A stretch of DNA of 64,000 nt from Acutalibacteraceae bacterium. GTDB lineage: Bacteria > Bacillota > Clostridia > Oscillospirales > Acutalibacteraceae. Numbering within the stretch: position 1 is the first letter of the stretch; the number at the start of each line of letters is the position of its first letter. Positions 1,307-36,519 of the stretch are shown here, in pieces. The stretch lies in NCBI GenBank assembly GCA_045641585.1, contig JAZUHF010000041.1:2217-66216 (forward strand). The letters run 5' to 3'. The translations under genes were made by a program, and so were the position numbers. The notes under the pieces are model-generated. The model was not told the origin of the DNA. It saw nothing but the letters and a program-made list of their open reading frames with translations, and did not search any database.

Positions 1307-1310
1307 TTGT

Positions 1311-20860: not shown

Positions 20861-21919
20861 ATGGCTGAACAAGTTTCAAAGTATCATCATAAAGTACCTC
20901 AAACATACTTAAAATCGTGGTGCTTTTCGGGTGACGCTATTCATACTTACAATAAAAACTTATCAAAAATAGAGGACAGAAATATTTCAAATATATTGGG
21001 CGAAAATTATTTTTATTCAATATATGCCGGAAGTCTTTTTGCCACCGATGAATCCCTTAAAAAAATATTTGGCTTTTTGAAAGACTTTTCCATCACAATG
21101 GATGGAAAAGAACTTACATCACTACGAGAGTTGAATGAAAAATTTGAAGAATACGATAATTGGGAAATTTACTATCCAAACGGCAAAATTGTTCCGAAAA
21201 AGGGAAGGAATAAGATAAAGCAACAAATACTGTCAACAACGGATGATACATTGGAAAAGAGATGGAGTCAAGAGTTTGAAAACGATTGGGGAAGAATTGT
21301 TACAAATCTGTATTCCCGATTAGTGCGTATTCTTTCCAAAGATCCGGATGAGTGCTTAACCTATAATGAATTTCTCTCGTTAATTCGTTACTACATTATG
21401 TATGATTGGCGTGGAGAAGAAGGAAATTCCACACTGAACGATTTCTTGAAATGGCTTGGGAAATTTGTCCCAATATTTGATTACAAACTAACTGATTATA
21501 CAACAATAAAAAATTATGGATTTAATGATACCATTATCGAAGAAATAAAGCATGCTTCCTCACTAAGATTCTATGAGCAATTCCTTGATAATAAAGGAGG
21601 TATGAAGAAAATTTATGATGCATATGTAAAAGAATTAACTGTTATATTTTTGTTGGATAGGAATTCTTCTTTATTTACTTCGGACAATCCTGCATTCGAG
21701 CTAATTGATGAAGACGGTTTGAAAAAACCAATACTCGCTATTACTCCAAAAGTTCTTATGATGTTAGCACGCAAAAACCCAGAGGAACCGTTGTCATATA
21801 TAATCAATCGACTGTCTCCCGAAGAAGTTGAGTATTATAATAAACAAATTTTTAACCACGGAAACATAATTGTTTCCAAGCAACCATTTACTGATAGCAA
21901 TATTGAGAAATATAAATGA
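20861..21919 (+). CDS. DUF4238-like protein
   Basis: N-terminal ...KYHHKVPQTYLKSW... resembles the H-[HY]-V-P-Q-x-Y-L signature of DUF4238; 352 aa from ATG 20861. Confidence 0.5.
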   Translation: MAEQVSKYHHKVPQTYLKSWCFSGDAIHTYNKNLSKIEDRNISNILGENYFYSIYAGSLFATDESLKKIFGFLKDFSITMDGKELTSLRELNEKFEEYDNWEIYYPNGKIVPKKGRNKIKQQILSTTDDTLEKRWSQEFENDWGRIVTNLYSRLVRILSKDPDECLTYNEFLSLIRYYIMYDWRGEEGNSTLNDFLKWLGKFVPIFDYKLTDYTTIKNYGFNDTIIEEIKHASSLRFYEQFLDNKGGMKKIYDAYVKELTVIFLLDRNSSLFTSDNPAFELIDEDGLKKPILAITPKVLMMLARKNPEEPLSYIINRLSPEEVEYYNKQIFNHGNIIVSKQPFTDSNIEKYK

Positions 21920-22199: not shown

Positions 22200-23237
22200 A
22201 TGAAGTTTACTAAATTTTGGGATCAAGTACATGTGCCAGTTTCACAGTCAGAGTTAAATTTAGTACTTATTGCACATGTACGTGAACCACGCGGGAATAT
22301 AAATATTGCACAACTTCAGTGTAGCGAAACAGAGCGATTTTCTATAGATGAATTTAATGAAATATATCAAGGTATTGTTAGTGCGGGATACTTTGTACAA
22401 GCTGTCTATTTTAATGAAATTGATTTTATAACAGACTGTATCGAACATCAAGAACGTTATAAAAATAGCTTAATATATACTCTAGCAAGAAATGGATTAG
22501 GTGATAATAAAAAGACAATTATTCCCTCGTTCTGTGAATTAATTGGTTTGAGGTATACGACCTCATCTTCATTATCATGTGCATTAGCTCGTAACAAATA
22601 TTATTTTTCTTCATTATTTAATGCCCACAATGTACCAGTGCCTAAGAGTTGGTTATACACTGAAAACAAGATTTGGTTGAACGGAACACCTGAAACTGGT
22701 ACAAAGGTTATTTGTAAACCATCTTCCGAGTCCGCCAGTCAAGGAATAAATGAATCAAAAATTTTTGAATTTTCAACTGAACAAAGTGCTAATTTGTTAA
22801 ATGTAAGCCATATTGTTCAAGAGTATGTGGATGGTTTTGAGTGTGAGGTTCCTATATTAAAAGTGCAAGATACTATATATGTTTTACCACCAATTGGTAT
22901 TGACCTTAAAGGTAAGAAAATTTTGGATGAAGAGGCTTCTGACCATAATCAATATGGTTTTTACCAATTGGACAAACATTTTTCGTCAAAAACTATTGAT
23001 GCTATTCAAAACGCAGCAGAAAGGGCTTTCCGCTTACTACAGATGGATGTATATGGACGAATAGATTTCCGTATTTCAAAAAATGGACATCCATTTATTT
23101 TTGATGTATCTACGACACCATATACCACAAAACACAGTTCATTTGCTTATGCATTTGAACTGTTAGGATTTGAATACTGTGATATTTATCGTGCAATCAT
23201 TTCAGCAGCTTTAATGCGTGAACAAAACTACATTTAG
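22200..23237 (+). CDS. ATP-grasp enzyme, D-Ala-D-Ala-ligase-like
   Basis: 345 aa. Ddl-like order of motifs: ...LRYTTSSSLSCALARNKYYFSSLFNAHNVPVP..., VICKPSSESASQGI, VQEYVDGFECEVPIL, GRIDFRISKNGHPFIFDVSTTPY. Confidence 0.7.
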   Translation: MKFTKFWDQVHVPVSQSELNLVLIAHVREPRGNINIAQLQCSETERFSIDEFNEIYQGIVSAGYFVQAVYFNEIDFITDCIEHQERYKNSLIYTLARNGLGDNKKTIIPSFCELIGLRYTTSSSLSCALARNKYYFSSLFNAHNVPVPKSWLYTENKIWLNGTPETGTKVICKPSSESASQGINESKIFEFSTEQSANLLNVSHIVQEYVDGFECEVPILKVQDTIYVLPPIGIDLKGKKILDEEASDHNQYGFYQLDKHFSSKTIDAIQNAAERAFRLLQMDVYGRIDFRISKNGHPFIFDVSTTPYTTKHSSFAYAFELLGFEYCDIYRAIISAALMREQNYI

Positions 23238-25684
23238 AAAGATAAAAATTGCAAATCAGATAATAAAAAACCACGACCCCAGAAATAACATGAGTTGTCT
23301 TGAAGATGACTACATTTCGTACTAATAATACTATGATACATAAACGGATTACCAATAAATTCTGTAGCATTAGTTAATAGTTCTTCTTGAATAAATTGCC
23401 TTTTTTGAAGAATTACTCGATAGTGACGAAGAAGCGGAGGATCAAGTGATTTTAATTTCAATAGATTTTTTTTTGCACTCGTTACATCTCCTTTTAGCAA
23501 AGCATTCGCATAATTCAAATCATATAAATAGTATTGATAAAACTCATCAAGATTCGGAAGCAATCTATTTGCATTTAATAGCTCTGACTCCGTGGTATTT
23601 GTCTGACATAACATAGATAGGCCTATATAATTGAAAAGGATAACATGGGATACTTCATCGTACTGATACCGAATTATTTTAGAAAATCCACTAACAGCTT
23701 TCTGTGCTGCAAATAAGATTTTTTCTCTATCTCCGCAAGCGTTCTTTTCATCAATTAGATAATTTAGCAGTATTTCATTGTTTTCCACTTTGTATTGACT
23801 GGGATAATACCAACCATCGCTATTGTTAACCATTGAAATACACTCATTTATTGCATTCTTAGCAGTTTGGTATTCACCTAACACGATTGCATTGCCAGAA
23901 TGATTGCATAGAGCCATATATGTACCATTACGATTGAAATGCTTTTTATAAAACTGAATACTCTGTTCAGTTTGGCGACAAGCAATCATAGCTGTATAGT
24001 ATAAAGTAGCCTTCCGATTATAACATGCCTCAAATTCGTCAAATTCAGGAATTCCTATATGGTCTTGTATTATTCGAATAATCTTGTTTTTTAGGAGATT
24101 AACTTTTTTCTGATCATTTGAGCGATCGATATAAGCATCTAACAAAACTAATGCGGCTCGACAATATTGTTCATCTTCAAAACGACCAATATCTTCAATA
24201 GTGTTATAGAGTTCATTGGCAGATTGAACAATCTGTCCTAGATCCTCTGCTAACTGAATATGACATAAAAGAATAAGTCTTTGGCACTCGGCTAAGCATG
24301 CTGGAACGAGGCGACTAGGTGTTATAGCCTGGAAATGTATTAATGCATTTTTATAATTATATTTCACAAACTCTTGATAACCTTGGGTAAACTCAACCAA
24401 CACATGATGCTGTGTATCGATAGCGTTAGCAGGAAGACGATTGATGAGTTCTTCAATTTTTTCTAATATATTATAGACATCATCGGTATTTCCTGTTTCA
24501 ATTGAACGTCTAAAATATGCTAAAAGTAAGAGCTGCCATGCTTCCACAATTGTTTTCGTATCAGACAATTGTAAGCTTAAAGCTAAATGCTTCCCCCGGG
24601 AATAATAATCTTCAGGATGATTGTTTTGCAGAAATTCAGAAAATTTATGGTGATAATATCTTTCTTTTTTAGCCAGTTTAAATTTAAAATACTCTTTAAC
24701 TTTATCGTTAGCAAAAAGAAATCTGTTTTCACCTCTAATAAACATCTGTTCTTGTGCAAGTTGCAAATATTCTTCGGCAAGATATTCAGCTTCATATTTA
24801 TCATTGGGTGTAGGATCTAGGAAATAAGCCGCCTCATCTCTCGAAAAGTAACTTTCAATTATTGAGAGTGAACCTAGAATTTTACATATTCCTTGCTTTT
24901 CAATAGGCAAACTGTCGCATCTACGATCCATAATATCAATAAAATCATTTGCACATTTCCCGCCCTCTTTATAATAATTGGCTGTCATAAGAGCTAATGA
25001 TATATCATTACCAGCACAAATGCGTATATCTTTAATGCATATTTGTTCTGCGTGTCCATTTTCACGTAGTATATGCAATAAACTTTCATCTGGAATATTG
25101 GGAACCTTTATATTATACCAATGAACTGGAACTTGTATGGATATCTTGCTTTGAGCAATAATTAACACATTTAAATTATATTCAGATAATATCCCCAATT
25201 GTGGATCCATTATCTTTTGAAGCAACTGTTTTGAAGGAGTGTCCCATAATTCAAAGTTATCTGCAATAAAGAGAATCCTGTGTTCTGAACCTATCTGCTT
25301 CTTTATATTGGAAATAATGGCCTCCTCGCTTGAAGTTAAGATATAATTTGTTGAAGTTTTATTAATTGAAGTTCCAAATTCAAGTGAAATTGGAACTGGT
25401 AAAAAACTGATGCCAAATGAAATGTTGCTTTCGAGATTAAGTTTTGTTTTTGAATATAGCCTGGTGCCAATATGCCAAGTTAAATATGGAGATAAACTAG
25501 GATCAATCCCTTCAAGGCAAAAGATGGTCCACCCTTCGAGTAGTTGATTGGCCAAGCCTAGTGCAATAGTAGTTTTGCCGCTTCCAGCATCTCCATACAA
25601 TGTGATACCTTTATTTTTTTCATCACTCAATAATCTATTGTAAAGTTTGTCCACTAATTCCTGTTCAAAAACAGCTAAAGACAT
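23234..25684 (-). CDS. STAND-like P-loop NTPase with C-terminal helical (TPR-like) repeats and no recognisable effector domain
   Basis: 816 aa. Walker A GDAGSGKT at residues 31-38. Walker B ILFIADNFELWD. About 550 aa of alpha-helical repeats. Its stop codon overlaps the ATP-grasp stop (23234-23237). Confidence 0.65.
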   Translation of the reverse strand: MSLAVFEQELVDKLYNRLLSDEKNKGITLYGDAGSGKTTIALGLANQLLEGWTIFCLEGIDPSLSPYLTWHIGTRLYSKTKLNLESNISFGISFLPVPISLEFGTSINKTSTNYILTSSEEAIISNIKKQIGSEHRILFIADNFELWDTPSKQLLQKIMDPQLGILSEYNLNVLIIAQSKISIQVPVHWYNIKVPNIPDESLLHILRENGHAEQICIKDIRICAGNDISLALMTANYYKEGGKCANDFIDIMDRRCDSLPIEKQGICKILGSLSIIESYFSRDEAAYFLDPTPNDKYEAEYLAEEYLQLAQEQMFIRGENRFLFANDKVKEYFKFKLAKKERYYHHKFSEFLQNNHPEDYYSRGKHLALSLQLSDTKTIVEAWQLLLLAYFRRSIETGNTDDVYNILEKIEELINRLPANAIDTQHHVLVEFTQGYQEFVKYNYKNALIHFQAITPSRLVPACLAECQRLILLCHIQLAEDLGQIVQSANELYNTIEDIGRFEDEQYCRAALVLLDAYIDRSNDQKKVNLLKNKIIRIIQDHIGIPEFDEFEACYNRKATLYYTAMIACRQTEQSIQFYKKHFNRNGTYMALCNHSGNAIVLGEYQTAKNAINECISMVNNSDGWYYPSQYKVENNEILLNYLIDEKNACGDREKILFAAQKAVSGFSKIIRYQYDEVSHVILFNYIGLSMLCQTNTTESELLNANRLLPNLDEFYQYYLYDLNYANALLKGDVTSAKKNLLKLKSLDPPLLRHYRVILQKRQFIQEELLTNATEFIGNPFMYHSIISTKCSHLQDNSCYFWGRGFLLSDLQFLSF

Positions 25685-25807: not shown

Positions 25808-25833
25808 TATATTATCGAAATATGAGGTGCAAT

Positions 25834-26745
25834 ATGGAAAATTTAATTTTTATGTCGCAAAAATTCTTAAATGAAACGCAATCTACCAAAAACTTGTCCG
25901 ACAAAACAATAATTGCGTATCGTTCGGATTTGTCTGATTTTATCGGGTTTATAGGTGAAAAACAAATAGACAATTCAACAATAATTGAGTATGTAAAACA
26001 TTTATCAACTGAGCGTCAGTTACAAGGGAGCAGTATAAACCGAAAACTTGTGGTATTAAAAGTGTTTTTCGGGTTTTTATATAGCAACAATTACACAGAA
26101 GAAAACTTTTACAACTCACATATTTTTAAATTCAAAAAAGAACGAAAGTTGCCAAAAATCATAGCCACAAAAGATGCAGAAAGATTGTTAAAGCATTTAA
26201 AAAACGAAGCAGAGAAAGATATGGGAGATTATACTCATTGGTTGTCTTTGCGAAATTTGGCTTTGATAGATATTTTAATCAGTACCGGAATACGGATTGA
26301 AGAAGCATCTAATATAACGCTAAATGATATTTTTGCTACAGAAAGAACAATTTTGATTCACGGAAAAGGGAGAAAGCAACGGCTGATTTATATTTCATGC
26401 CCGGATACTTGGATTAACCTAACAAATTGGCTGAAATCTCGAAAACAGAGAGCCGTTTATACGGACAAAGTTTTTGTCAACCGTTACGGAAATAATATAA
26501 GTATACATGGAATAGAGTACATATTTAATTCAATAAAAAAGAAAAGCGGAATCAATGAAAAATCGACACCGCATTATCTCAGACATACCTTTGCAACAAA
26601 TTTATTGGCGAATGGGGCAGATTTACGCTCGGTACAGGAAATTTTAGGTCATAGTAGTGTCTCAACGACTGAAATCTATACTGAAGTAACAACAAAACGC
26701 AAAAAACAAGTATTGAACAAATACAATTACAGAAACAAATTATAA
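25834..26745 (+). CDS. Tyrosine site-specific recombinase (XerC/D-like)
   Basis: ATG 25834 after GAGGTG. SAM-like N-domain. C-terminal ...HYLRHTFATNLLANGADLRSVQEILGHSSVSTTEIYTEV (R..H-x-x-R...H...Y). Confidence 0.85.
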   Translation: MENLIFMSQKFLNETQSTKNLSDKTIIAYRSDLSDFIGFIGEKQIDNSTIIEYVKHLSTERQLQGSSINRKLVVLKVFFGFLYSNNYTEENFYNSHIFKFKKERKLPKIIATKDAERLLKHLKNEAEKDMGDYTHWLSLRNLALIDILISTGIRIEEASNITLNDIFATERTILIHGKGRKQRLIYISCPDTWINLTNWLKSRKQRAVYTDKVFVNRYGNNISIHGIEYIFNSIKKKSGINEKSTPHYLRHTFATNLLANGADLRSVQEILGHSSVSTTEIYTEVTTKRKKQVLNKYNYRNKL

Positions 26746-26833: not shown

Positions 26834-27442
26834 ATGAAACAAGAAAATAAAAGTTTTACAATCCGCCGTATATTTAAGGAACACAACAATGTCATGACAA
26901 CGGCTGAACTGAGCAACAACAAAATCTTTTACGCCGATATACAAAATCTTTTGAGGGATGGAAAAATCGAAAAGGTACGGCGTGGTTATTACCATTGCAT
27001 TGAAGATTTCGGCGGAAGTGAAGTATCTATTATCAATAGACTTTTTCCCGATGCGGTGTTGTGTATGGAAACGGCTTTGTTTTATTACGGTTACAGCGAC
27101 CGAAATCCTGCCGAGTGGAATATTGCGATTGATAAAAATACTTCACGATATCGTACAAAGATAGATTATCCGTTTATTAAAGATTATCGGCTTGATTCTG
27201 CAATAATCAAGTTGGGTGAGTCGCAAGGCACTATTGACGGAGAGCGTGTGCGGATATATGACAGAGAGCGGACGATATGCGATGTTCTCCATAATATGAG
27301 CAAAATGGATAAGGAAATTTTTAATAAAGCCATTATGAGCTATGTATATGACTCAAAAAAGAATATTCCGAATTTGCTCGAATACGCCAAAGTTTTGCGA
27401 GTAAGTAAAAAAGTCAAGGATTTGATAGGGGTGTGGTTGTAA
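26834..27442 (+). CDS. AbiEi-family type IV antitoxin / transcriptional regulator
   Basis: 202 aa; N-terminal wHTH ...MTTAELSNNKIFYADIQNLLRDGKIEKVRRGYYH... typical of AbiEi; TAATG overlap with the next gene. Confidence 0.7.
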   Translation: MKQENKSFTIRRIFKEHNNVMTTAELSNNKIFYADIQNLLRDGKIEKVRRGYYHCIEDFGGSEVSIINRLFPDAVLCMETALFYYGYSDRNPAEWNIAIDKNTSRYRTKIDYPFIKDYRLDSAIIKLGESQGTIDGERVRIYDRERTICDVLHNMSKMDKEIFNKAIMSYVYDSKKNIPNLLEYAKVLRVSKKVKDLIGVWL

Positions 27443-28275
27443 TGACGGATGTAGCGGCTTCGGTTTTGGCAAAACTCCGTAATAAAGCAAAGCAAAGCGG
27501 AATCAGTTATCAGCAATGCTTGCAGTTGTTTGTTCAAGAGGAATTTTTGCGTAAACTCTCTAAGTCCGGATGCTCGGAGCATTTGGTATTAAAAGGCGGA
27601 TTGTTTATTTATACGCTTACAAATTTTAAAAGCCGTGCAACCATTGATGCGGATTTTTTATTAAGAAATTATTCAAATACTGTAAATGATGTAAAGGCAC
27701 TTGTTGAAAAAATAATATATACGCCAACCGGCAACGATTATATTGTAATGAAAGCAAACGGCTTTGAAGAGATTTCTCCGCAAAGGAAATATCACGGAAT
27801 AAGCACACAAATTGTTTGTACGATAAAAAATGTTCGTGTTCCGTTTAATGTTGATATCGGCGTGGGTGATGTTATCGTGCCAGATGCAGAAGAACATCAA
27901 ATTATTACACAATTAGACGGATTTGAAACACCGGTTATTAAGACATATTCGCTTGAAAGTACTGTTGCAGAAAAATTTGATGCTATACTTCAACGCTTTG
28001 AACTTACCGGAAGAATGAAAGATTTTTATGATATATATTATCTTTCCAAAACTTATAAATTTGATGAAGAAAAATTGCGAAAAGCAATCTTTGAGACACT
28101 TAAAAGACGGGGTACACCCTATGATAAAGGCAGTTTTCACAGAATCATTTCACTTAAAGATGATCCGGACATGCTTAAAAAGTGGAAGTATTTTTTGAAG
28201 AATATTAAAGATGAAAATTTAGAGTTTGAAACTGTTATTGATGGAATACAGGCTTTTCTGGAGCCGATATTATAA
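27442..28275 (+). CDS. AbiEii/AbiGii-family nucleotidyltransferase toxin (DUF1814)
   Basis: ...ASVLAKLRNKAKQSGISYQQCLQLFVQEEFLRKL...LVLKGG...IDADF... N-terminal signature of AbiEii. Confidence 0.7.
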   Translation: MTDVAASVLAKLRNKAKQSGISYQQCLQLFVQEEFLRKLSKSGCSEHLVLKGGLFIYTLTNFKSRATIDADFLLRNYSNTVNDVKALVEKIIYTPTGNDYIVMKANGFEEISPQRKYHGISTQIVCTIKNVRVPFNVDIGVGDVIVPDAEEHQIITQLDGFETPVIKTYSLESTVAEKFDAILQRFELTGRMKDFYDIYYLSKTYKFDEEKLRKAIFETLKRRGTPYDKGSFHRIISLKDDPDMLKKWKYFLKNIKDENLEFETVIDGIQAFLEPIL

Positions 28276-28366
28276 GTTTTTAAACAAAAAATGTTTTTGT
28301 GTATTGATTTATGTTTTAAATTTGATATATAATTATCATAAGTATTAATAGAGAGGACATAATATT

Positions 28367-29578
28367 ATGTGCGAAGAAACAATGCAAAATTCACTTGATA
28401 ATAACAAAGAAAACTTTGTTGAAATTTCTAGTTTTGACACTGAAGTGATATTTGATAATGAAGATGATCAACTAAATCCATCAGCTAATTCAAATAATGA
28501 AAGGGTTTATCCTGTGAAATCAATAAAAGTAGAACGAGGATTTTACACTACATTTGAACTAAAAAGAAAATACGATAAACAACCTTCATTGGTAATACTA
28601 GATAGCGATTTTCAACGGGAAAATGTTTGGAAACTTCAGCAAAAAAGAGAATTGATTGAAAGCATATTAATGGGATTACCATTGCCTATTTTTTATTTTA
28701 ACGAAGATAAAATGGGAAAACTAATAGTTATAGATGGTCGGCAAAGATTAGATGCGATTTTTTCGTATATGAATGGAGATTTTGCTCTAGATAAATTGAA
28801 AATATTAGATGAATTTAATAAAAAAAAGTTTAAGGATCTTGACCCGATTTATCAATCCAAAATTGAAGACTATCAAATAATGGCGCATGTAATACAACCG
28901 GCAACTCCAGATAGGGTTAAATTTGATATTTTTGATAGAGTTAACCGTGCGGGGACACAATTGAACAAGCAGGAAATTCGTAATGCTTTATATCAGGGCA
29001 AATCCACATTATTATTGAATAGATTGTGTAACTCTAATGAATTTAATGAAGCAACAGAAAATTATTTTTTAAAAGATACTCGTATGAAAAACAGATATTT
29101 GTTATTGAGATTTATTGCTTTTTATTTACTGTTTAATAAAAAAATATATAAAAGAAATGGAAGTCAAAATGAGTTGTATTCATATAATGGTGATATTGAT
29201 GAGTTATTAGGATTAGCCATGGAATTCTTAAATAATTGTAGTGATTATGAAATAGATCAAATTGAAAAAACAACAATAATAGCTTTAACTCAAATAACAT
29301 TTTATTTGGGTTATAACGCTTTTAGGTTGTTAGATGTTAACAAAGATGGAACTATAAAACGTTATCCTATAAATATCAATATTTTTGAATGTTTTATGTA
29401 TGCTATGACTCTTTTGCCGATTAAAAATCATCAAATAAAAGATAAAGTTATGAATTACTTTAGTGATTTGAAAAACGATATAGAATTTAGAGAAAGTTTG
29501 AATAATCATCGTGATAGTGATGTCAAAGTGAAATTAAGAAGTGATAAAATAAATAAAATAGTGGGTGATTTTTTATGA
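28367..29578 (+). CDS. DUF262 (ParB/GmrSD-N-like) domain protein
   Basis: ...DSDFQRENVWKLQQKRELIESILMGLPLPIFYF...LIVIDGRQRLDAIFSY...NRAGTQLNKQEIRNA; no HNH/DUF1524 tail seen. Confidence 0.7.
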   Translation: MCEETMQNSLDNNKENFVEISSFDTEVIFDNEDDQLNPSANSNNERVYPVKSIKVERGFYTTFELKRKYDKQPSLVILDSDFQRENVWKLQQKRELIESILMGLPLPIFYFNEDKMGKLIVIDGRQRLDAIFSYMNGDFALDKLKILDEFNKKKFKDLDPIYQSKIEDYQIMAHVIQPATPDRVKFDIFDRVNRAGTQLNKQEIRNALYQGKSTLLLNRLCNSNEFNEATENYFLKDTRMKNRYLLLRFIAFYLLFNKKIYKRNGSQNELYSYNGDIDELLGLAMEFLNNCSDYEIDQIEKTTIIALTQITFYLGYNAFRLLDVNKDGTIKRYPININIFECFMYAMTLLPIKNHQIKDKVMNYFSDLKNDIEFRESLNNHRDSDVKVKLRSDKINKIVGDFL

Positions 29579-30603
29579 TAAATAAAGTGCATATAACAAA
29601 TTTTAAAAGTATTTCGGATTTGATTGTGTATTGTAATAAATTAAATATTATTGCTGGTGCAAATTCATCTGGAAAATCAACATTCATACAAAGCTTGTTA
29701 CTTATGCAACAAAACAATAAAACTAATATGGGATTAAATGGAGAATTTATCAAACTTGGCAATTACAAAGATATAAAAAATTTCAATTTAAATTCTCAAA
29801 AAACATCTATAGAAATAGATGATTCTAAAATCGTTTTTTCAGATGAAGGTATAATAGTTAATGATTTTTTAGATAAAGGAAATAATTCTGAAAATCCTAA
29901 TATATGTCCAACAATTAATTACCTATCTTGCGAAAGAATAGGGCCAGAAGATATTTATAAAAAAAATTACCATAGTGATGTTAATGTTGGAATGGATGGG
30001 GAGTTTGCTATTTATGTTTTAGATAAAAATAAGGATATCCCCTTGTCTAAAGAATTAATATGTGATAATAATTCATTTACATTGGGAAATCAAGTGAATT
30101 ATTGGCTTAAATATATTTTGGGAGCTACAATTGTAACAGAAGATATTATTGGTACAGATTTTGTAAAATGTTTTTTTTCAGTTGCAGGTGAAAAACTTAT
30201 TCGGCCAAAAAATGTTGGTGCGGGATTTAGTTACCTTGTAAGTATTATTGTTATGTGTTTGTTATGTAAGGAAAATGATGTTGTAGTGATCGAAAATCCC
30301 GAAATACATCTCCATCCAAATGCTCAATCGAAAGTTTGTGAATTCTTGTATTTTATTTCTTCACACAATCGTCAAGTTTTTGTTGAAACTCATAGTGACC
30401 ACATATTTAACGGTGTTAGAGCTGGAATAGCAAGTGAGAAAATGGAATCTGAGACAATAGCAATTGATTTTTTTACTATGAATGATAAATATTGCACAGA
30501 AAATAATATTATTAAAGTCGGAAAAAGAGGACGAATTAGCAATTGCCCAAACGGTTTATTTGATCAATTTGATATTGATTTAAATCGTATGCTCAATATT
30601 TAG
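29575..30603 (+). CDS. ABC/SMC-type ATPase (AAA_15/21, DUF3696-like)
   Basis: ITNFKSISDL...IIAGANSSGKST (Walker A), VVVIENPEIHLHP (Walker B/D-loop), ETHSDH (H-loop); 4-nt overlap with the DUF262 gene. Confidence 0.7.
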   Translation: MINKVHITNFKSISDLIVYCNKLNIIAGANSSGKSTFIQSLLLMQQNNKTNMGLNGEFIKLGNYKDIKNFNLNSQKTSIEIDDSKIVFSDEGIIVNDFLDKGNNSENPNICPTINYLSCERIGPEDIYKKNYHSDVNVGMDGEFAIYVLDKNKDIPLSKELICDNNSFTLGNQVNYWLKYILGATIVTEDIIGTDFVKCFFSVAGEKLIRPKNVGAGFSYLVSIIVMCLLCKENDVVVIENPEIHLHPNAQSKVCEFLYFISSHNRQVFVETHSDHIFNGVRAGIASEKMESETIAIDFFTMNDKYCTENNIIKVGKRGRISNCPNGLFDQFDIDLNRMLNI

Positions 30604-30612
30604 GAATGTGCT

Positions 30613-31518
30613 ATGGAAATAATATTAAATGACTATTCAATTGATTCTCAGTTTGATAGTGTGGAATCTTTCGTTGATTCATTAGTTGAGTATACATTGC
30701 CTTTATTAGATATACTAAAGAGCAAAGAGTTTTATATATTGAAAAGGTATGATTCATACAATTTAAAAATCACATCCGATTTATCACTTTATGATTTTTT
30801 AAAGTTGAATAAATACAATGCATATGCAGAAACTCAAAAAATGAAATCACTGCTGGTTTCATTAAGTGATGAACCTTATTGGCAAGATAATAATAGGACG
30901 GACCAAAAATCTGTTTATAAAACCGAATTTACTGGGGAGTTTTATGGTAGTAGTCCGAATTGTTTTTCGGAGGCTTTAGAAAGAGATAAGATTGTTTTTT
31001 CATTTGAAAAAGAAAATTTTAAGAGAAAAACATTAAAAATACTTAAAAATAATATTGATTTTGAATTACATAATTTTTATGATTCAATTAATACTTTTGA
31101 TTTTCTTTATGAGAAGAGCTATATTTCTTTTTCCGAATTGCTTTTGGGATACAATAATAGTCTTAAAATTTCATTCTTTTGTTTGAATGGTTCGGTAATA
31201 ATAGATAATGAGTTTGATGATTCCAATTTGACCATTGATGATGCTTACTCAATTAAAAGAGATTTTTGTAAATGGATAGAGGGAATTGAATATGACAATA
31301 TGTTGCCTAGATTAACGGATTCAATTAAATATAAAGATATAACTTATAATGAGTTTAGAACAACTTTAAAAAATAGTAGAGAGTTTAGGATGTTTTATAA
31401 ATTAATAGACAATACATATGTATTTTTTAATTTGTTATTAAAAAAATCAGAAGCAACTCCTATGAATACAAAGAAAAGAACATATGATTTGATAAAACAT
31501 TATTATAAAACGGACTAA
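30613..31518 (+). CDS. Hypothetical protein with a C-terminal RelE/ParE-superfamily (Gp49/HigB-like) module
   Basis: 301 aa. Last ~65 aa are ...YNEFRTTLKNSREFRMFYKLIDNTYVFFNLLLKKSEATPMNTKKRTYDLIKHY. They follow the Gp49-type pattern W-E-L-R...R-I-x-F-x...h-h-L-L-x-x-F-x-K-K-[TS]-x-x-T-P...E-I-x-x-A. N-terminal ~235 aa unassigned. Confidence 0.5.
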   Translation: MEIILNDYSIDSQFDSVESFVDSLVEYTLPLLDILKSKEFYILKRYDSYNLKITSDLSLYDFLKLNKYNAYAETQKMKSLLVSLSDEPYWQDNNRTDQKSVYKTEFTGEFYGSSPNCFSEALERDKIVFSFEKENFKRKTLKILKNNIDFELHNFYDSINTFDFLYEKSYISFSELLLGYNNSLKISFFCLNGSVIIDNEFDDSNLTIDDAYSIKRDFCKWIEGIEYDNMLPRLTDSIKYKDITYNEFRTTLKNSREFRMFYKLIDNTYVFFNLLLKKSEATPMNTKKRTYDLIKHYYKTD

Positions 31519-31554: not shown

Positions 31555-31593
31555 GTTTAAGCGGTTGACAAACGGCTTAAACTGTGTTATTCT
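31555..31593 (+). promoter_or_regulatory. Promoter with a palindromic operator flanking the -35 box
   Basis: GTTTAAGC (31555-31562) / GCTTAAAC (31575-31582) arms around TTGACA (31565-31570); 17-nt spacer; TATTCT (31588-31593). Confidence 0.5.
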
Positions 31594-31795
31594 AATGATG
31601 CTGAATTTTAAAATAATGAAGGAGAGGTTAAATAGTAAACTTAATCAAAAGCAAATGATGAAAGTTCATCGGCTTTTGAGGAATGCATTTGAATTCGAAT
31701 TGATTCGAAGATCGGGTGAAGTTTACTATGGTAAGATGTCCTTCATAAAGTTCGGTGGTTTTTCTGAATATAAAGGCATAGTATCATAGAAACAT

Positions 31796-31824
31796 ACGCT
31801 CATCTTCGGATGGGCGTTATTTTT
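31796..31824 (+). terminator. Intrinsic terminator at the end of a ~230-nt leader, immediately upstream of xis
   Basis: ACGCTCATC-TTCG-GATGGGCGT followed by TATTTTT. Confidence 0.55.
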
Positions 31825-31866
31825 ATGCTCAAAACGAAAAAACAAAAATCGAAAGGAGGGAAAGCG

Positions 31867-32064
31867 GTGATTTCTGAAAACAAATGCCTTTTTTATGAAG
31901 CGGAAGATATTTTTGAAATGTTAGGTCTGCAAAAGACTGCAGGATACAGATATTTGGAAAAGGTTATGAAAAGCGGAAAACCTTTTAAAACTATAAAAAT
32001 CGGAAAACTGTATCGTATTTCCAAAGTGTCGTTTGATGCTTGGATTCAAAATGAGATGCAGTAA
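31867..32064 (+). CDS. Excisionase-type (MerR/HTH_17-like) DNA-binding protein
   Basis: GTG 31867 five nt after AAAGGAGGG; 65 aa ...FYEAEDIFEMLGLQKTAGYRYLEKVMKSGKPFKTIKIGKLYRISKVSFDAWI. Confidence 0.65.
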   Translation: MISENKCLFYEAEDIFEMLGLQKTAGYRYLEKVMKSGKPFKTIKIGKLYRISKVSFDAWIQNEMQ

Positions 32065-32088: not shown

Positions 32089-33237
32089 TTGAAAAGCAAT
32101 AAATCCAAACCTTTTTATCGTTGTGGTTCATGGTATCACAGAACAAAATTTTTAAGAGATGATTTCACAGTGGGATACGGTAAGAAAGGAGGATATGCAA
32201 CCGCCGAAGAGGCGGAGAAAGGGAAAATTATTATGGATAAATTATTTGAAGAGCAAAAGAATAATGTGTTTGGTAAACAAACAATGTTGTTATCTGAATT
32301 TTTAGAAGATTGGTTTTACAATATTCAGTGTAACAAAATCAGTTCAGCTTGCAAAATGAACATGGAGCATACCTTGAAACAGTGGATTATGCCGTTTGTA
32401 GGAGATATTGAACTGAATCAGTGCAATACGGAATATATCGACCAATTACTCGAAAAAGCATCAACGCTAACGACCACATCAGCCGAAAAAGCAAGAGAAG
32501 TATTAAGCATCGCTTTTAATTTTGCCTATCAAAACAACTTGATTGATAGGAATCCTGTAAAACAGGCAAAAAAATATTCTCATACTAAGAAACCGTTAAA
32601 AGTTTTAAGTGATGATGAAATCAAGAGATTTTTGCTGTGTGCTTCTGCAAATTCACGGTTTTTGGAGATTTTGTTAGCACTGTTTTGCGGATTGTCAAGA
32701 GCGGAAATCTACGGTCTTAAATTTTCGGACTTTGATTGGGATGCCAAAACCTTAACGGTATCAAGAGAAATTGTTCAGGATAAGAAGTTTGATGCAGAAA
32801 AGCAAAAGGAAATTTACTGTTCCAAAGTTCAAGAATTGCACACACAAAACAATCACAGAACTCTTGCCGTGCCGGATATTATATTCGATGAACTGAGCAA
32901 AAGAGAAGTAATGATTGAGGCAAATAAAATGCGGTATCAGCCGTATTATGACGAGGATTACATTTGTTGCCAAAAGGACGGAAAAACACCGGCATTAAGT
33001 TTGCTCAACGATGCACTTTCTGCAATTTGCAAAAAATCAAAACTTGGCTCGATTACGGTACAAGACCTCAGAAATACCTATGCCGTTCGCTTTTTGAATG
33101 ACTTTGGGACTTTACAGGAATTATCTCTAAATTTAGGGTACAGCAGTATAAAAACGACTGATGAGCGATATGGGAATTTTTCGAGAAAACCTCAATCCGC
33201 CAAGGAAATTATTGATTCAATATTTAAGGTGAGTTGA
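32089..33237 (+). CDS. Tyrosine integrase (phage-integrase family) with N-terminal arm-type DNA-binding domain
   Basis: 382 aa; TTG start after AAGGAG; ...GLSRAEIYGLKFSDF..., ...VQDLRNTYAVRFL..., ...LGYSSIKTTDERYG. Confidence 0.8.
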   Translation: MKSNKSKPFYRCGSWYHRTKFLRDDFTVGYGKKGGYATAEEAEKGKIIMDKLFEEQKNNVFGKQTMLLSEFLEDWFYNIQCNKISSACKMNMEHTLKQWIMPFVGDIELNQCNTEYIDQLLEKASTLTTTSAEKAREVLSIAFNFAYQNNLIDRNPVKQAKKYSHTKKPLKVLSDDEIKRFLLCASANSRFLEILLALFCGLSRAEIYGLKFSDFDWDAKTLTVSREIVQDKKFDAEKQKEIYCSKVQELHTQNNHRTLAVPDIIFDELSKREVMIEANKMRYQPYYDEDYICCQKDGKTPALSLLNDALSAICKKSKLGSITVQDLRNTYAVRFLNDFGTLQELSLNLGYSSIKTTDERYGNFSRKPQSAKEIIDSIFKVS

Positions 33238-33240
33238 GTG

Positions 33241-34419
33241 ATGACGAGTAATTGTTATGTGGATTTCAAAATAAGCGGTGTAATAAAAATCAAAGGGAAA
33301 TATGGCTTTCGCATTTACTTAAAATTAACCGACGGAAGCAAAACAACAAAACAGCATTCCGGTTTTGAAACCAGAAAGGCGGCAAGTGAAGCAAGAGATA
33401 AAGCGGTGGCGGAACTGTATACACATACTTATGTTCTTAACAAGAAGTTGACGGTATCGGAATATTTGGATGATTGGTTGGAAAGCGAAATCAAAAAAAC
33501 CAAAAGATCTGCTACTTATTCGACCTATTACTATTGTATTAAAAATAATATTGCACCCTATATCGGCAAAATCAAGCTTTGTGAGTTGAGCCGTCTTCAT
33601 ATCAATTACTTGTATGAAAAGGTGAGTAAAGAATCGTATTCAAATGCAAAAATGGTAAGGAACATTCTGAAAACTTCATTGAAACACGCAAACGACCGGC
33701 AGCAGATATCTTCAAATCCCACGGAGGGTATCTGCTTGCCAAAGCGGTCGCATAATGATAATAAACCGCAAAAAACCTTGACGGCAGAACAAGTGGGAAT
33801 ACTCATTGAAAATGCTAAAGGCACCAAAATATATTTATTTGTTCTTTTTGCGGCATTGATGGGTTTAAGGCGAGGAGAGATATTAGGACTAAAATATGCG
33901 GATGTAGATTTTGAAAATCACACCATTCACATCACACGCCAATTGGGAAAAGATGTTAATAAGTCGGCACCTGTCAAAAATGTTACAAAGCAGGAAATAC
34001 CGCTTAAAACAAATTCGTCCAATCGGATAATAGCTATGCCGGATTTAGTGTATGAGGCGGTAATTAAGGAAAGAACACTATATGAAAAGCACCGCAACAA
34101 AAGAAAGAAAACCTTTGTTGATGCCGATTATATCTGCTGTTCGACCTACGGCAGACCAAGAAGTCCGGCATTTGTGTATCAACCGTTTAAGGAACTCTTA
34201 AAAAAGTGCAGTTTGCCGGATATCCGTTTTCACGATTTAAGGCATACTTGTGCCACTATTCTTTTTGAAAACGGGGTAGATATGCAGGTTATCTCGGATA
34301 CACTCGGTCATTCAAAACCGTCAATGTCATTTGATGTGTACGGAGATAAAACCCGTATGCAAATTGTAAGAATGAGTTGGATTAACGGATTAAACGAATA
34401 TGTGGGTAAAGTGTTATAG
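33241..34419 (+). CDS. Second tyrosine integrase, paralogous to the upstream one
   Basis: ...GLRRGEILGLKYADVDF..., ...RFHDLRHTCATILFENGVDMQVISDTLGHSKPSMSFDVYG; starts 4 nt after the previous stop. Confidence 0.8.
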   Translation: MTSNCYVDFKISGVIKIKGKYGFRIYLKLTDGSKTTKQHSGFETRKAASEARDKAVAELYTHTYVLNKKLTVSEYLDDWLESEIKKTKRSATYSTYYYCIKNNIAPYIGKIKLCELSRLHINYLYEKVSKESYSNAKMVRNILKTSLKHANDRQQISSNPTEGICLPKRSHNDNKPQKTLTAEQVGILIENAKGTKIYLFVLFAALMGLRRGEILGLKYADVDFENHTIHITRQLGKDVNKSAPVKNVTKQEIPLKTNSSNRIIAMPDLVYEAVIKERTLYEKHRNKRKKTFVDADYICCSTYGRPRSPAFVYQPFKELLKKCSLPDIRFHDLRHTCATILFENGVDMQVISDTLGHSKPSMSFDVYGDKTRMQIVRMSWINGLNEYVGKVL

Positions 34420-34554
34420 AAAACTTTATGAAAGTCTTTTTTTTAATAAGAAACTGTGGTATAATAGTCTTAAATAAAAAAATGACTTTTTTCGTCCAAA
34501 GCACATTTTATACATATTTAACTTGATTTATTGATTAAAAAGAGAGGAGGGCAA

Positions 34555-36519
34555 ATGCCAATGGATAAATTTGAAATCGTATCAAAATTTAAGCCGACGG
34601 GAGACCAACCGCAAGCCATTGAGAAGTTAGTAGACGGTATCAACAAAGGGCTGAAAGAACAAGTATTATTGGGCGTTACAGGCAGTGGTAAGACTTTTAC
34701 GATGGCTAATGTAATTGCCAAAGTCAACAGACCAACGCTGATATTAGAGCCAAATAAGACATTGGCTGCCCAAATCTGTTCAGAACTCCGTGAATTTTTC
34801 CCTAATAGTGAAGTTGCCTTCTTTGTATCCTATTATGACTACTACCAACCCGAAGCGTATATACCTGGCACTGACACATATATAGAAAAAGATTCGGCGA
34901 TTAACGATGAGATTGATAAATTAAGGCACAGTGCAACCTGCGCACTCTCTGAAAGACGGGATGTTATAATTGTTGCTTCTGTTTCCTGCATATATTCGCT
35001 CGGAAGTCCTATTGATTATCGAAATATGGTCATTTCTTTGCGTAAAGGAATGGCGAAAAACCGAGATGAACTTATAAAGAAACTTGTTGATTTACAGTAT
35101 GAGCGAAACGATGTAAATTTTGTGCGTAATAAATTCCGTGTTCGCGGCGATGTTGTGGATGTTTTTCCGGCATACTCATATGAAAACGCAATACGCATTG
35201 AGTTTTTCGGCGATGAAATTGACAGAATTTGCGAAGTCAACGCACTTACCGGCGAAATTAAAGGTATTGTAAATCATGTTGCAATCTATCCTGCATCACA
35301 TTATATTGTCCCGCAGGATAAATTAGAGGATGCCTTGAAAGAATTAAAGGAAGAAATGGAAGAACGTGTGGAGTTTTTCAATGAAAACGGAAAGCTCATT
35401 GAAGCGCAGAGGATAAGGCAACGCACCGAATATGATATTGAAATGCTCCGTGAAGTCGGCACCTGCAAGGGAATTGAAAACTATTCCCGTGTTTTATCAA
35501 GGCGGCCTAAAGGCAGTGTGCCCTCGACATTGCTTGATTATTTTCCTGATGATTTTTTGCTTTTTGTTGATGAATCTCATGTGACTTTGCCACAGGTTCG
35601 GGGTATGTTCGGCGGCGATAGGGGAAGAAAGGAAAATCTTGTTGATTTTGGGTTCAGACTTCCGTCTGCTTTTGATAACCGTCCGCTTAATTTTAATGAG
35701 TTTTACAGTCATATAAATCAGGCAGTATTTGTTTCGGCAACTCCGGGCGATTTTGAAAAAGAGCACGCCGCTTCAATTACCGAGCAGGTTATAAGACCTA
35801 CGGGACTTTTAGACCCGATGGTTATTGTAAAACCGTCTGAGGGACAAATTGACGATTTGATTTCCGAAATAAATAAGCGAACTGCTAAAAATGAGAGAGT
35901 GCTTGTTACCACTCTTACCAAGAAGATGGCGGAGGATCTTACGGAGTATCTCGAAAATCTTGAAATCAAAGTCCGATATATGCATTATGATATTGACACT
36001 ATTGAGCGTATGGAGATAATAAGAGACTTAAGACTCGGCGAATTCGATGTTTTGGTCGGTATCAATTTATTAAGAGAGGGACTTGATATACCCGAAGTAT
36101 CGCTTGTTGCAATTCTTGATGCCGATAAGGAAGGCTTTTTGCGAAGTGAAACCTCACTCGTTCAAACAATCGGCAGAGCCGCGCGAAACGCAGACGGCAC
36201 CGTAATAATGTATGCCGACAGTGTCACTCGTTCAATGGAGTCTGCAATAAAGGAAACCGAACGCCGTCGCAATATTCAGCAAAAATACAATGAAGAACAC
36301 GGCATTGTCCCGAAAACAATTTTAAAGGATGTCCGTGATATTATTGAAATCGGTTCAAAGGTTGAAAACAATAAGCCCGATAGTAAACTGTCCCGCGCAG
36401 AAAGGGAAGAACTTATTAAGCGCTTAACCCGTGAAATGCAGCAAGCGGCAAAAATTCTTGAATTTGAACATGCCGCCGCTTTGCGTGACAGAATAAATAA
36501 ACTAAGGGGTAAAAAATAG
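34555..36519 (+). CDS. uvrB: Excinuclease ABC subunit B (UvrB), full length, probably with an island-derived 5' end
   Basis: ATG 34555 after [30 protein letters not shown], helicase motifs and C-terminal UVR domain ([17 protein letters not shown]) all present. Confidence 0.95.

What the first reader, a model, noticed from the sequence alone, without database searches (positions are those of the whole stretch)
28367..31518. Three-gene operon: DUF262 protein, ABC-type ATPase (DUF3696-like) and a 301-aa protein ending in a RelE/Gp49-like toxin module
The genes are tightly coupled (4-nt overlap, then a 9-nt gap) and have their own promoter-like region (28300-28340). Gene 1 has the DGRQRL ParB/GmrSD-N motif set but no HNH/DUF1524 nuclease tail. 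Gene 2 is an SMC/ABC-like ATPase with Walker A, IENPE-HLHP and THSDH motifs. Gene 3 is unassignable over ~235 aa. Its last ~65 residues (YNEFRTTLKNSREFRMFYKLIDNTYVFFNLLLKKSEATPMNTKKRTYDLIKHY) follow the Gp49/HigB-type RelE-fold pattern almost position for position. A ribosome-dependent mRNase-like module fused to a large unknown domain, downstream of a DUF262 + ATPase pair, would be a plausible sensor/ATPase/abortive-effector arrangement. DUF262 + ABC ATPase pairs occur in defence islands. I cannot assign this three-gene form to a named system from sequence alone.
Basis: partly seen in the sequence, partly recalled or inferred. Interest (0 to 1): 0.7.

Follow-up and report, generated by a model that had tools for sequence, protein, structure and literature searches.

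The report
Menshen (NsnABC) anti-phage defence operon

Summary
The three ORFs, their 4-nt overlap and 9-nt gap, and the quoted motifs are all present as described. All three proteins match the PADLOC models of one named system, Menshen: NsnA 3.8e-97, NsnB 1.3e-93, NsnC 2.7e-33 and 9.5e-28. The window protein itself does not reach Pfam Gp49. However, 12 of 19 close homologues hit it weakly, and 53 of 147 remote relatives sharing the N-terminal domain hit it (best 2.6e-17). A confident AlphaFold model (pLDDT 88) has S. pneumoniae HigB, M. tuberculosis HigB1 and V. cholerae HigB2 as its top PDB matches. A family profile finds the first two by sequence (3.5e-6, 4e-5). Equivalents of catalytic residues E66, R68, R77 and K95 of HigB1 are conserved (E247, R249, R259, K277). 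Li et al. (NAR 2025) already describe NsnC as an N-terminal 'inactive PIN' domain plus swappable effectors that include Gp49. They propose the same sensor, transducer and effector model. This is therefore a new member of a known kind. The PIN-like fold of the N-terminal ~200 residues was not reproduced by Foldseek. The operon sits beside AbiE on a ~14-kb integrase-bearing element inserted into uvrB.

The parts
28304..28333 (+). Promoter-like site (TTGATT, 18 nt, TATAAT) 34 nt upstream of nsnA. This is a candidate only.
   Evidence: It matches 10 of 12 positions and is the best + strand match upstream of gene 1 (sequence). The number of such matches in the region is not above the shuffle expectation. 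No terminator-like site separates it from abiEii, which ends at 28275, so read-through from abiE is possible.
28367..29578 (+). nsnA: ParB-like DUF262 protein of 403 aa, the proposed sensor. It has no DUF1524 or HNH nuclease domain.
   Evidence: PADLOC NsnA 3.8e-97, covering profile positions 14-380 of 385. Pfam GmrSD_N 2e-23 over residues 77-209. Motifs QRENVW83, DGRQR123 and FDRVN189. Orthologues hold the same position in L001-L003.
29575..30603 (+). nsnB: ABC-type (AAA_15/OLD-ABC) ATPase with a C-terminal DUF3696 helix, 342 aa, the proposed transducer.
   Evidence: PADLOC NsnB 1.3e-93, covering 1-344 of 345. Pfam AAA_15 1.4e-23, AAA_21 6.8e-19 and DUF3696 3.8e-7. Walker A GANSSGKS28, Walker B VVVIEN236 (the EN variant described for NsnB in PMC12065111), GAG215 and THSDH272.
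30613..31224 (+). nsnC, N-terminal domain (residues 1-204). This is the NsnC-family domain that the literature calls an 'inactive PIN-like' domain and predicts to dock on the NsnB DUF3696 helices.
   Evidence: Five PADLOC NsnC models align from residue 1 (best 2.7e-33, residues 1-193). Of 150 listed remote relatives, many match only this part. AF2 model pLDDT 84. No significant PDB fold match (best E = 1.0), no PDB sequence match and no Pfam PIN hit in 147 relatives. Conserved positions are N6, D/E7, Q13, P88, W90, E120 and S130.
31225..31518 (+). nsnC, C-terminal Gp49/HigB-type RelE (BECR) fold domain (residues 205-301, plus the stop codon). This is the proposed RNase effector.
   Evidence: The AF2 model shows helix 208-226, four strands (235-240, 243-251, 257-265, 268-277) and a long helix 284-300, at pLDDT above 90. 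Foldseek top hits are 6af4 HigB, 7nbu/7awk HigB1 and 5ja8 HigB2, with probability 1.00 and TM up to 0.71. Pfam Gp49 is hit by 12 of 19 close homologues and 53 of 147 remote ones, best 2.6e-17. The A5 profile hits PDB HigB at 3.5e-6 and HigB1 at 4e-5. E247, R249, R259 and K277 align with HigB1 E66, R68, R77 and K95.

Best explanation
This is an intact Menshen (NsnABC) anti-phage defence operon carried on an integrated mobile element. What is shown here is the family membership of all three proteins, the intact nucleotide-binding and ATPase motifs, and the HigB/Gp49-type RelE fold of the NsnC C-terminus with its core basic residues. The mechanism below is inferred from the published model and from homologous systems. 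NsnA (ParB-like DUF262 NTPase plus a DNA-binding C-terminal half) senses a phage-derived nucleic-acid cue. NsnB, an ABC ATPase predicted to form a tetramer, holds NsnC through its C-terminal DUF3696 helices, which clamp the NsnC N-terminal domain. On sensing, ATP binding or hydrolysis by NsnB releases or allosterically activates NsnC. The Gp49/HigB-like NsnC domain then cleaves RNA, most likely mRNA in the manner of HigB toxins. This shuts down translation of phage and/or host messages, giving an abortive-infection-like outcome. No separate antitoxin is needed because the NsnB complex keeps the toxin domain in check.
For: Full-length, highly significant matches of the three proteins to PADLOC NsnA, NsnB and NsnC. 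Pfam DUF262, AAA_15 and DUF3696. Intact motifs. The same three-gene order, sizes and 9-nt nsnB-nsnC gap in three independent Clostridia-type genomes, with the neighbours confirmed as NsnA/NsnB. NsnC C-terminus: Gp49 hits in relatives, a confident model, HigB-type toxins as the top fold hits, profile hits to solved HigB and HigB1, and conservation of the residues whose Ala substitutions abolish HigB1 toxicity (R68, R77, K95; PMC9098466), seen as E247, R249, R259, K277. Relatives with the same N-terminal domain carry other effectors such as DUF4160, which is the effector swapping reported for Menshen (PMC12065111). A Menshen system protected against T2, T4, T6 and Fado in experiments cited in PMC12065111. 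The NsnB4-NsnC2 docking model is in PMC12065111. The genomic setting is a defence island next to AbiEi/AbiEii on an integrase-bearing element.
Against: No experiment exists for this locus, nor for any Gp49-type Menshen; the validated S. silvestris system has a different BECR effector (PB-BECR1). The window NsnC itself does not reach Pfam Gp49, and its closest relatives stay just under the gathering score (best 22.4 against 23.9 bits). The equivalents of HigB1 K58 and K99, both needed for HigB1 toxicity, are D236 and A281 here. Substrate contacts may therefore differ, or activity may be lower. A 200-aa N-terminal domain fused to a RelE-like module may not fit the ribosomal A site, so ribosome dependence is only an inference. 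The trigger sensed by NsnA is unknown. The published PIN-like assignment of the N-terminal domain was not reproduced.
Confidence: 0.85

Rival explanations
1. The operon acts mainly as an addiction or stabilisation module for the 14-kb integrated element. It would be a three-part toxin-antitoxin-like system in which NsnA/NsnB neutralise the HigB-like NsnC, rather than acting as phage defence.
For: The C-terminal domain is a HigB/Gp49-type toxin fold. The operon lies on an integrase-bearing element next to a type IV TA/Abi pair, AbiEi/AbiEii. No separate antitoxin gene follows nsnC.
Against: The family was defined by, and one member validated for, phage defence (PMC12065111). The ParB-DUF262 sensor and ABC ATPase architecture parallels SspE/GmrSD and Gabija/Septu/PARIS defence logic. 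The two roles are not mutually exclusive.
Confidence: 0.07
2. NsnC is a dual nuclease, or its N-terminal domain is the main catalytic part. On this view the N-terminal domain is an active PIN-like or other metal-dependent nuclease and not an inert docking or RNA-binding module.
For: A nearly invariant polar and acidic set persists across relatives averaging only 20 % column identity: N6 140/141, D/E7 139/141, Q13 137/141, E120 135/143, S130 136/142. A 2026 preprint argues that Menshen-associated PIN domains keep an active-site-like constellation (10.64898/2026.08.28.747851).
Against: No PIN family is hit by any of 147 relatives in Pfam, and there is no PIN or other nuclease fold hit in the PDB. 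Only two acidic positions are strongly conserved, against four in canonical PIN. The same conservation could reflect the predicted NsnB DUF3696 docking surface (PMC12065111).
Confidence: 0.12
3. It is a GmrSD/SspE-like type IV restriction system that cuts modified phage DNA.
For: NsnA carries the GmrSD_N/DUF262 domain. It also gives weaker hits to PD-T4-2_A and a REase_II model.
Against: No DUF1524 or HNH nuclease domain occurs in any of the three proteins. The only recognisable effector is an RNase-type RelE/BECR fold. The NsnA match (3.8e-97) far exceeds the alternatives.
Confidence: 0.03
4. It is a decayed or silent remnant with no current function.
For: Decayed copies exist elsewhere: L005 has a 249-aa nsnA and a 157-aa nsnC. 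The K58 and K99 equivalents are absent from the toxin domain.
Against: All three ORFs are full length relative to their profiles and all motifs are intact. The D236 and non-Lys-281 states are shared by the whole 19-member subfamily, which is otherwise under clear constraint (59 % mean column identity, with invariant E247, R249, R259, K277).
Confidence: 0.03

Closest known systems
Menshen (NsnABC) system of Solibacillus silvestris StLB046 (Millman et al. 2022, as cited and analysed in Li et al., NAR 2025, PMC12065111)
   Same: The gene order is the same three genes. NsnA has DUF262 with the QRxxxW, DGxQR and FxxxN motifs plus a non-nuclease C-terminal half. NsnB is an AAA_15 ABC ATPase with the EN Walker B variant, GxG, the sensor His and a DUF3696 tail. 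NsnC has a family-specific N-terminal domain plus a BECR-fold C-terminal effector.
   Different: The effector subfamily differs: Gp49/HigB-type here against PB-BECR1 (YafQ-like, H-R-H triad) in S. silvestris. The host lineage also differs; the relatives found here are Clostridia, Lachnospiraceae, Oscillospiraceae and Ruminococcus MAGs. This locus has not been tested experimentally.
Gp49-type NsnC variants of Menshen listed by Li et al. 2025
   Same: The architecture is the same: an NsnC N-terminal domain followed by a Gp49 domain, downstream of NsnA and NsnB. Fifty-three of 147 relatives of the window protein carry a Pfam-recognisable Gp49 domain.
   Different: The window's 19-member subfamily is a divergent branch that stays below the Pfam Gp49 gathering score. 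It has a 5-residue insertion before the E-x-R strand, Asp in place of the HigB1 K58 equivalent, and no Lys at the K99 equivalent.
Gp49-like HigB toxins: M. tuberculosis HigB1/TAC toxin (7NBU, 7AWK), S. pneumoniae HigB (6AF3/6AF4), V. cholerae HigB2 (5JA8)
   Same: The fold is the same, with four antiparallel strands, flanking helices and the long C-terminal helix typical of Gp49-like toxins. Sequence-profile similarity is detectable. E66, R68, R77 and K95 have conserved equivalents.
   Different: Those toxins are stand-alone proteins of about 105-140 residues in the solved chains, neutralised by a HigA antitoxin (plus a chaperone in TAC). Here the module is fused to a 200-aa domain, has no antitoxin gene, and is presumably controlled by NsnB. 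Ribosome dependence is untested.
ABC-ATPase plus effector defence systems: PARIS (AriAB), Septu (PtuAB), Gabija (GajAB)
   Same: NsnB shares the OLD-type ABC ATPase core, giving partial PADLOC hits to AriA (3.2e-28), GajA and PtuA. The predicted logic of an ATPase oligomer clamping an effector is the same.
   Different: The matches are partial and far weaker than the NsnB match. The effector is an RNase-fold domain rather than a Toprim or HNH nuclease. An additional DUF262 sensor protein is present.

Membership tests
Menshen (NsnABC) | NsnA: ParB-like DUF262 domain with the QRxxxW, DGxQR and FxxxN motifs | tested here: met
   Pfam GmrSD_N 2e-23. PADLOC NsnA 3.8e-97, nearly full length. QRENVW83, DGRQR123 and FDRVN189.
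Menshen (NsnABC) | NsnA C-terminal half is the non-nuclease 'ParBDB' domain, with no DUF1524 or HNH | tested here: met
   The NsnA profile aligns through residue 400 of 403. No nuclease family is hit in Pfam. The ParBDB fold itself was not modelled here.
Menshen (NsnABC) | NsnB: AAA_15-type ABC ATPase with a DUF3696 tail, Walker A, the EN Walker B variant, GxG and a sensor His | tested here: met
   PADLOC NsnB 1.3e-93, covering 1-344 of 345. AAA_15, AAA_21 and DUF3696. GANSSGKS28, VVVIEN236, GAG215 and THSDH272. The feature list is from PMC12065111.
Menshen (NsnABC) | A third gene immediately downstream encodes NsnC, which has a family N-terminal domain plus a C-terminal effector domain | tested here: met
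   Five PADLOC NsnC models hit, including a full-length match (PDLC03886, 1-299, 9.5e-28). The C-terminal domain is a Gp49-type BECR fold.
Menshen (NsnABC) | Conserved colinear nsnA-nsnB-nsnC neighbourhood | tested here: met
   L001, L002 and L003 have 403-409, 344-348 and 301-304 aa genes in the same order with the same 9-nt B-C gap. The neighbours were confirmed as NsnA/NsnB.
Menshen (NsnABC) | The NsnC N-terminal domain has a PIN-like (Rossmann-like) fold lacking the D-E-D-D catalytic residues ('inPIN') | tested here: inconclusive
Menshen (NsnABC) | Confers resistance to phage infection | not testable with these tools
   Only the S. silvestris system has been tested, as cited in PMC12065111.
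Gp49-like / HigB toxin family (Pfam PF05973; RelE/ParE, BECR superfamily) | Sequence match to the family profile above its curated threshold | tested here: not met
   The window protein has no hit at E<=1 (full length) or E<=10 (C-terminal 97 aa). Close homologues reach 13.8-22.4 bits against a cut-off of 23.9. Remote NsnC relatives do pass, with a best E of 2.6e-17 and 53 of 147 hitting. The domain is therefore a divergent branch, linked through intermediates.
Gp49-like / HigB toxin family (Pfam PF05973; RelE/ParE, BECR superfamily) | RelE/BECR fold with a four-stranded antiparallel sheet and the long C-terminal helix of Gp49-like toxins | tested here: met
   Model elements are H208-226, E235-240, E243-251, E257-265, E268-277 and H284-300. 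Foldseek hits 6af4, 7nbu, 7awk and 5ja8 with probability 1.00 and TMt 0.54-0.71, followed by YafQ, RelE and ParE. The long helix feature is described in PMC9098466.
Gp49-like / HigB toxin family (Pfam PF05973; RelE/ParE, BECR superfamily) | Catalytic-pocket residues equivalent to HigB1 E66, R68, R77 and K95 (corresponding to RelE K54, R61 and R81) | tested here: met
   E247, R249, R259 and K277 align with them in the profile-to-7nbu/7awk alignment. They are invariant in the 19-member family and at least 90 % conserved in 51 relatives. The mutational data are in PMC9098466.
Gp49-like / HigB toxin family (Pfam PF05973; RelE/ParE, BECR superfamily) | Accessory basic residues equivalent to HigB1 K58 and K99, both required for HigB1 toxicity | tested here: not met
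   The aligned positions are D236 and A281 in the window protein. Most remote relatives have Lys at both, with consensus K-x-I and KKTQKTP.
Gp49-like / HigB toxin family (Pfam PF05973; RelE/ParE, BECR superfamily) | Paired with an adjacent HigA-type antitoxin gene (type II TA organisation) | tested here: not met
   No conserved small gene follows nsnC in the window or in L001-L003. The next genes differ between loci. The domain is a module of NsnC and not part of a TA pair.
Gp49-like / HigB toxin family (Pfam PF05973; RelE/ParE, BECR superfamily) | Ribosome-dependent mRNA cleavage | not testable with these tools
   This needs biochemistry.
GmrSD / SspE type IV restriction | DUF262 fused or coupled to a DUF1524 (His-Me/HNH) DNA nuclease | tested here: not met
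   Only GmrSD_N is found, and no DUF1524 occurs in any of the three proteins.
PARIS / Gabija / Septu | ABC ATPase paired or fused with a Toprim or HNH nuclease, with full-length matches to AriA, GajA or PtuA | tested here: not met
   Only partial, much weaker hits are found (AriA 3.2e-28 over residues 176-277; GajA and PtuA around 1e-12 to 1e-16), against NsnB at 1.3e-93 full length. No Toprim or HNH partner is present.

The most novel reading that the evidence does not exclude
In this Clostridia-type NsnC clade the N-terminal ~200 residues may not be an 'inactive PIN'. They may instead be a distinct fold with no solved counterpart. Its nearly invariant N6, D/E7, Q13, E120, S130 site could form a second catalytic centre or the switch that NsnB operates. 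The attached Gp49 module has lost the K58 and K99 equivalents and gained a 5-residue insertion, so it may have changed its RNA or ribosome contacts, for example to ribosome-independent cleavage of a specific RNA.
Probability: 0.15. Interest if true: 0.45.

Novelty: new member of a known kind. Interest (0 to 1): 0.2.

Why it matters
This result mainly matters as a clean annotation. The mechanism of Menshen is still experimentally unresolved: the trigger sensed by NsnA, how NsnB controls NsnC, the RNA target, and whether it acts by abortive infection. This compact 3.15-kb Gp49-type example has clearly mappable catalytic residues (R249, R259, K277) and could serve as a test case. It adds nothing conceptually new beyond Li et al. 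2025.

Tried and rejected
- **Direct Pfam and NCBIfam assignment of gene 3:** no hit, and the isolated C-terminal 97 aa gave none either.
- **PDB sequence search with the close-family C-terminal profile (A2):** only chance-level hits. It succeeded only after the profile was widened with remote NsnC relatives (A5).
- **PIN-like fold for the N-terminal domain:** the whole-protein Foldseek search showed only C-terminal matches. A separate model of residues 1-204 gave no significant PDB match. A PDB profile search gave none. No PIN Pfam family appeared in 147 relatives. The 'inPIN' label could therefore be neither confirmed nor refuted.
- **GmrSD-like restriction, PARIS/Gabija/Septu, MADS (mad3 5.8e-13) and PD-T4-2:** considered and rejected. 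The hits are partial and far weaker than the Nsn matches, and the defining nuclease partners are absent.
- **The structured stretch downstream of nsnC (31565-31826) as part of the system:** it has no Rfam family and its motif is absent from the other Menshen loci. It is only locally similar to 19780-19804. It was rejected as a Menshen component and remains unexplained.
- **Plasmid origin:** the operon DNA has no near match in PLSDB.
- **Promoter claim:** the site exists but is not statistically distinguishable from background in this AT-rich DNA.


Full report
**Observation.** Genes 1 and 2 overlap by ATGA, and a 9-nt gap separates genes 2 and 3. Gene 1 carries Pfam GmrSD_N/DUF262 (2e-23) and nothing resembling DUF1524 or HNH. 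Gene 2 carries AAA_15, AAA_21 and DUF3696. Gene 3 has no Pfam or NCBIfam hit. The quoted motifs are present: QRENVW83, DGRQRL123 and FDRVN189 in gene 1, and GANSSGKS28, VVVIEN236-PEIHLHP and THSDH272 in gene 2. The promoter-like site (TTGATT-18-TATAAT, 28304-28333) is real. However, such matches are no more common here than in shuffled sequence (23 against 26.4), so it is only a candidate. The operon has 26.7 % GC against 35.8 % for the window.

**Identity of the operon.** Against PADLOC-DB the three proteins hit the three components of one named system. NsnA scores 3.8e-97 (profile positions 14-380 of 385) and NsnB 1.3e-93 (1-344 of 345). NsnC hits five models, the best being 2.7e-33 over residues 1-193 and a full-length 9.5e-28 over 1-299. 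NsnABC is the Menshen anti-phage system. According to Li et al. (NAR 2025, PMC12065111), a Solibacillus silvestris Menshen protected against T2, T4, T6 and Fado in the study of Millman et al. 2022. Competing assignments (AriA, GajA, PtuA, mad3, PD-T4-2_A, REase_II) are partial and many orders of magnitude weaker. NsnB even shows the family peculiarities listed by Li et al.: Walker B 'EN' instead of 'DE', and GxG instead of SGG.

**Synteny.** A genome scan with the NsnC family alignment returned six loci from Clostridia-type MAGs (Eubacteriales, Ruminococcus, Oscillospiraceae, Lachnospiraceae, Bacillota) and one weak, probably unrelated hit. L001, L002 and L003 have genes of 403-409, 344-348 and 301-304 aa in the same order, with the same 9-nt gap before nsnC. 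Their upstream genes are NsnA (about 1e-98) and NsnB (about 1e-93). L005 holds a decayed copy, with a 249-aa nsnA and a 157-aa nsnC. What lies downstream of nsnC differs between loci, so there is no conserved fourth gene or antitoxin.

The evidence comes in five steps.

- **Close homologues.** The window protein alone does not reach Pfam Gp49, even as an isolated 97-aa fragment at E<=10. It has only about 20 close homologue clusters (38-51 % identity). Of the 19 aligned, 12 hit PF05973 Gp49 in their C-terminal fragment (best 1.9e-5). As full-length proteins they stay just below the gathering score (up to 22.4 against 23.9 bits, profile positions 41-85 of 90).
- **Remote relatives.** A profile search of 1.84 billion representatives found 323 relatives. 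Of the best 146 plus the window protein, 53 carry Gp49 (best 2.6e-17) and 16 carry DUF4160. Many match only the N-terminal 150-200 residues. This is the effector swapping on a common N-terminal domain that Li et al. describe, and both Gp49 and DUF4160 are on their list of NsnC-C families.
- **Fold.** An AlphaFold2 model built on the 19-sequence alignment is confident (pLDDT 88.3, pTM 0.81). It shows helix 208-226, four β-strands (235-277) and a long helix 284-300. Foldseek against the PDB ranks S. pneumoniae HigB (6af4, E 2.3e-4), M. tuberculosis HigB1 (7nbu/7awk, TM 0.71) and V. cholerae HigB2 (5ja8) first. YafQ, RelE and ParE follow.
- **Sequence link to solved toxins.** A profile of 51 NsnC C-terminal domains, with the window sequence as first row (A5), finds S. 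pneumoniae HigB (3.5e-6) and HigB1 (about 4e-5) in the PDB by sequence alone.
- **Residue mapping.** In that alignment NsnC E247, R249, R259 and K277 correspond to HigB1 E66, R68, R77 and K95. The Ala of the K95A mutant chains aligns with K277. Mansour et al. (PMC9098466) report that K58A, R68A, R77A, K95A and K99A abolish HigB1 toxicity. They equate R68, R77 and K95 with RelE K54, R61 and R81.

E247, R249, R259 and K277 are invariant in the close family and at least 90 % conserved among the 51 relatives. The K58 and K99 equivalents are D236 and A281 in the window protein, and its subfamily also has a 5-residue insertion before the E-x-R strand. That divergence explains the failed Pfam match. 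It leaves some doubt about substrate contacts but not about the fold or the core site. The domain is about 95 residues long (205-301), not 65.

**Mechanism.** Three things are shown here: membership of all three proteins, intact NTP-binding and ATPase motifs, and a HigB-type fold with a conserved basic pocket. The rest is inferred from PMC12065111 and from the homologous systems it cites. NsnA senses a phage nucleic-acid cue, as DUF262 does in SspE and GmrSD. The NsnB tetramer holds NsnC by its N-terminal domain. ATP binding or hydrolysis then releases or activates NsnC, and the Gp49-like domain cleaves RNA. No experiment yet tells whether it acts in the ribosomal A site like HigB toxins, or whether it hits phage or host RNA.

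**Context.** The operon lies in a small defence island. Directly upstream is a complete AbiEi/AbiEii pair (2.5e-68 and 1.1e-86, and Pfam AbiEii 7.5e-40). Further upstream are a XerC-like recombinase and an 816-aa STAND-like NTPase on the opposite strand. Downstream are a small HTH_17 protein and two tandem tyrosine integrases that abut uvrB. A 245-nt direct repeat (75 % identity) links 20199-20443 to 34588-34832. The 130-aa ORF at 20103-20495 is a displaced UvrB N-terminal fragment, 71 % identical to residues 7-112 of the intact UvrB. A ~14.4-kb integrative element has therefore inserted into the 5' end of uvrB and carries the island, Menshen included. This fits the low GC content of the operon.

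**Verdict.** It is a new member of a known kind, and interest is low (0.2).

Noticed in passing
window 20103-20495 and 34531-34832 (repeat copies at 20199-20443 and 34588-34832): A 245-nt direct repeat (75 % identity) links these two sites. The 130-aa ORF at 20103-20495 is a displaced UvrB N-terminal fragment, 71 % identical to residues 7-112 of the intact UvrB at 34531-36519. This indicates a ~14.4-kb integrative element inserted into the 5' end of uvrB that supplies or duplicates the gene's 5' end.
   Followed up: partly
window 26834-27442 and 27433-28275 (+): A complete AbiEi/AbiEii abortive-infection (type IV TA) pair lies immediately upstream of nsnA. PADLOC scores are 2.5e-68 and 1.1e-86, and Pfam AbiEii is 7.5e-40. 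Only 91 nt and no terminator-like site separate it from nsnA.
   Followed up: partly
window 31565-31826 (+): An unexplained stretch lies between nsnC and the HTH_17 gene. It has a promoter-like TTGACA-17-TATTCT site with a TG extension (31565-31593) and a 232-nt region that folds at -74.2 kcal/mol (z = -7.3 against shuffles). It ends in the only terminator-like hairpin of the region (31796-31817). It has no Rfam family, is not found next to Menshen in other loci, and shares a 25-nt near-identical match with 19780-19804. It could be an element-encoded sRNA or a leader for the excisionase and integrase genes.
   Followed up: partly
window 23234-25684 (-): An 816-aa protein has weak N-terminal STAND/AAA_16/NB-ARC-type NTPase hits (about 5e-5, below Pfam cut-offs) and a long helical C-terminal part. 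It matches no PADLOC model. It is a possible uncharacterised STAND-type defence sensor on the same element.
   Followed up: no
window 20846-21919 and 22200-23237 (+): A DUF4238 protein (1.8e-21) and an ATP-grasp / D-Ala-D-Ala-ligase-C-like protein (4e-17) are further cargo at the left end of the element. Neither hits PADLOC.
   Followed up: no
window 25822-26745, 32089-33237 and 33238-34419 (+): The island holds three tyrosine recombinase genes. One is XerC-like and lies in the middle. The other two are tandem integrases next to uvrB, preceded by a small HTH_17 (excisionase-like, weak hit 6.4e-4) ORF at 31810-32064. The terminator-like hairpin overlaps the first ATG of that ORF, so its true start may be the ATG at 31825.
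   Followed up: no
window 1233-1309 (-) and 1356-1444 (-): Rfam finds a Gut-1 RNA (70.1 bits, E 5.8e-12) next to a tRNA gene. This fits a gut-associated Firmicute origin for the window.
   Followed up: no
L005 1288-3565: This locus, in a Bacillota MAG, holds a decayed Menshen copy. nsnA is truncated to 249 aa (matching only profile positions 152-383), nsnB is intact, and nsnC is cut to 157 aa and so lacks the toxin domain.
   Followed up: partly
relatives P0025-P0170 (alignment A4): Sixteen of the 147 proteins sharing the window's NsnC N-terminal domain carry DUF4160 instead of Gp49. Many others have C-termini with no Pfam match. The same docking domain is therefore combined with several effectors, some still unclassified.
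   Followed up: partly
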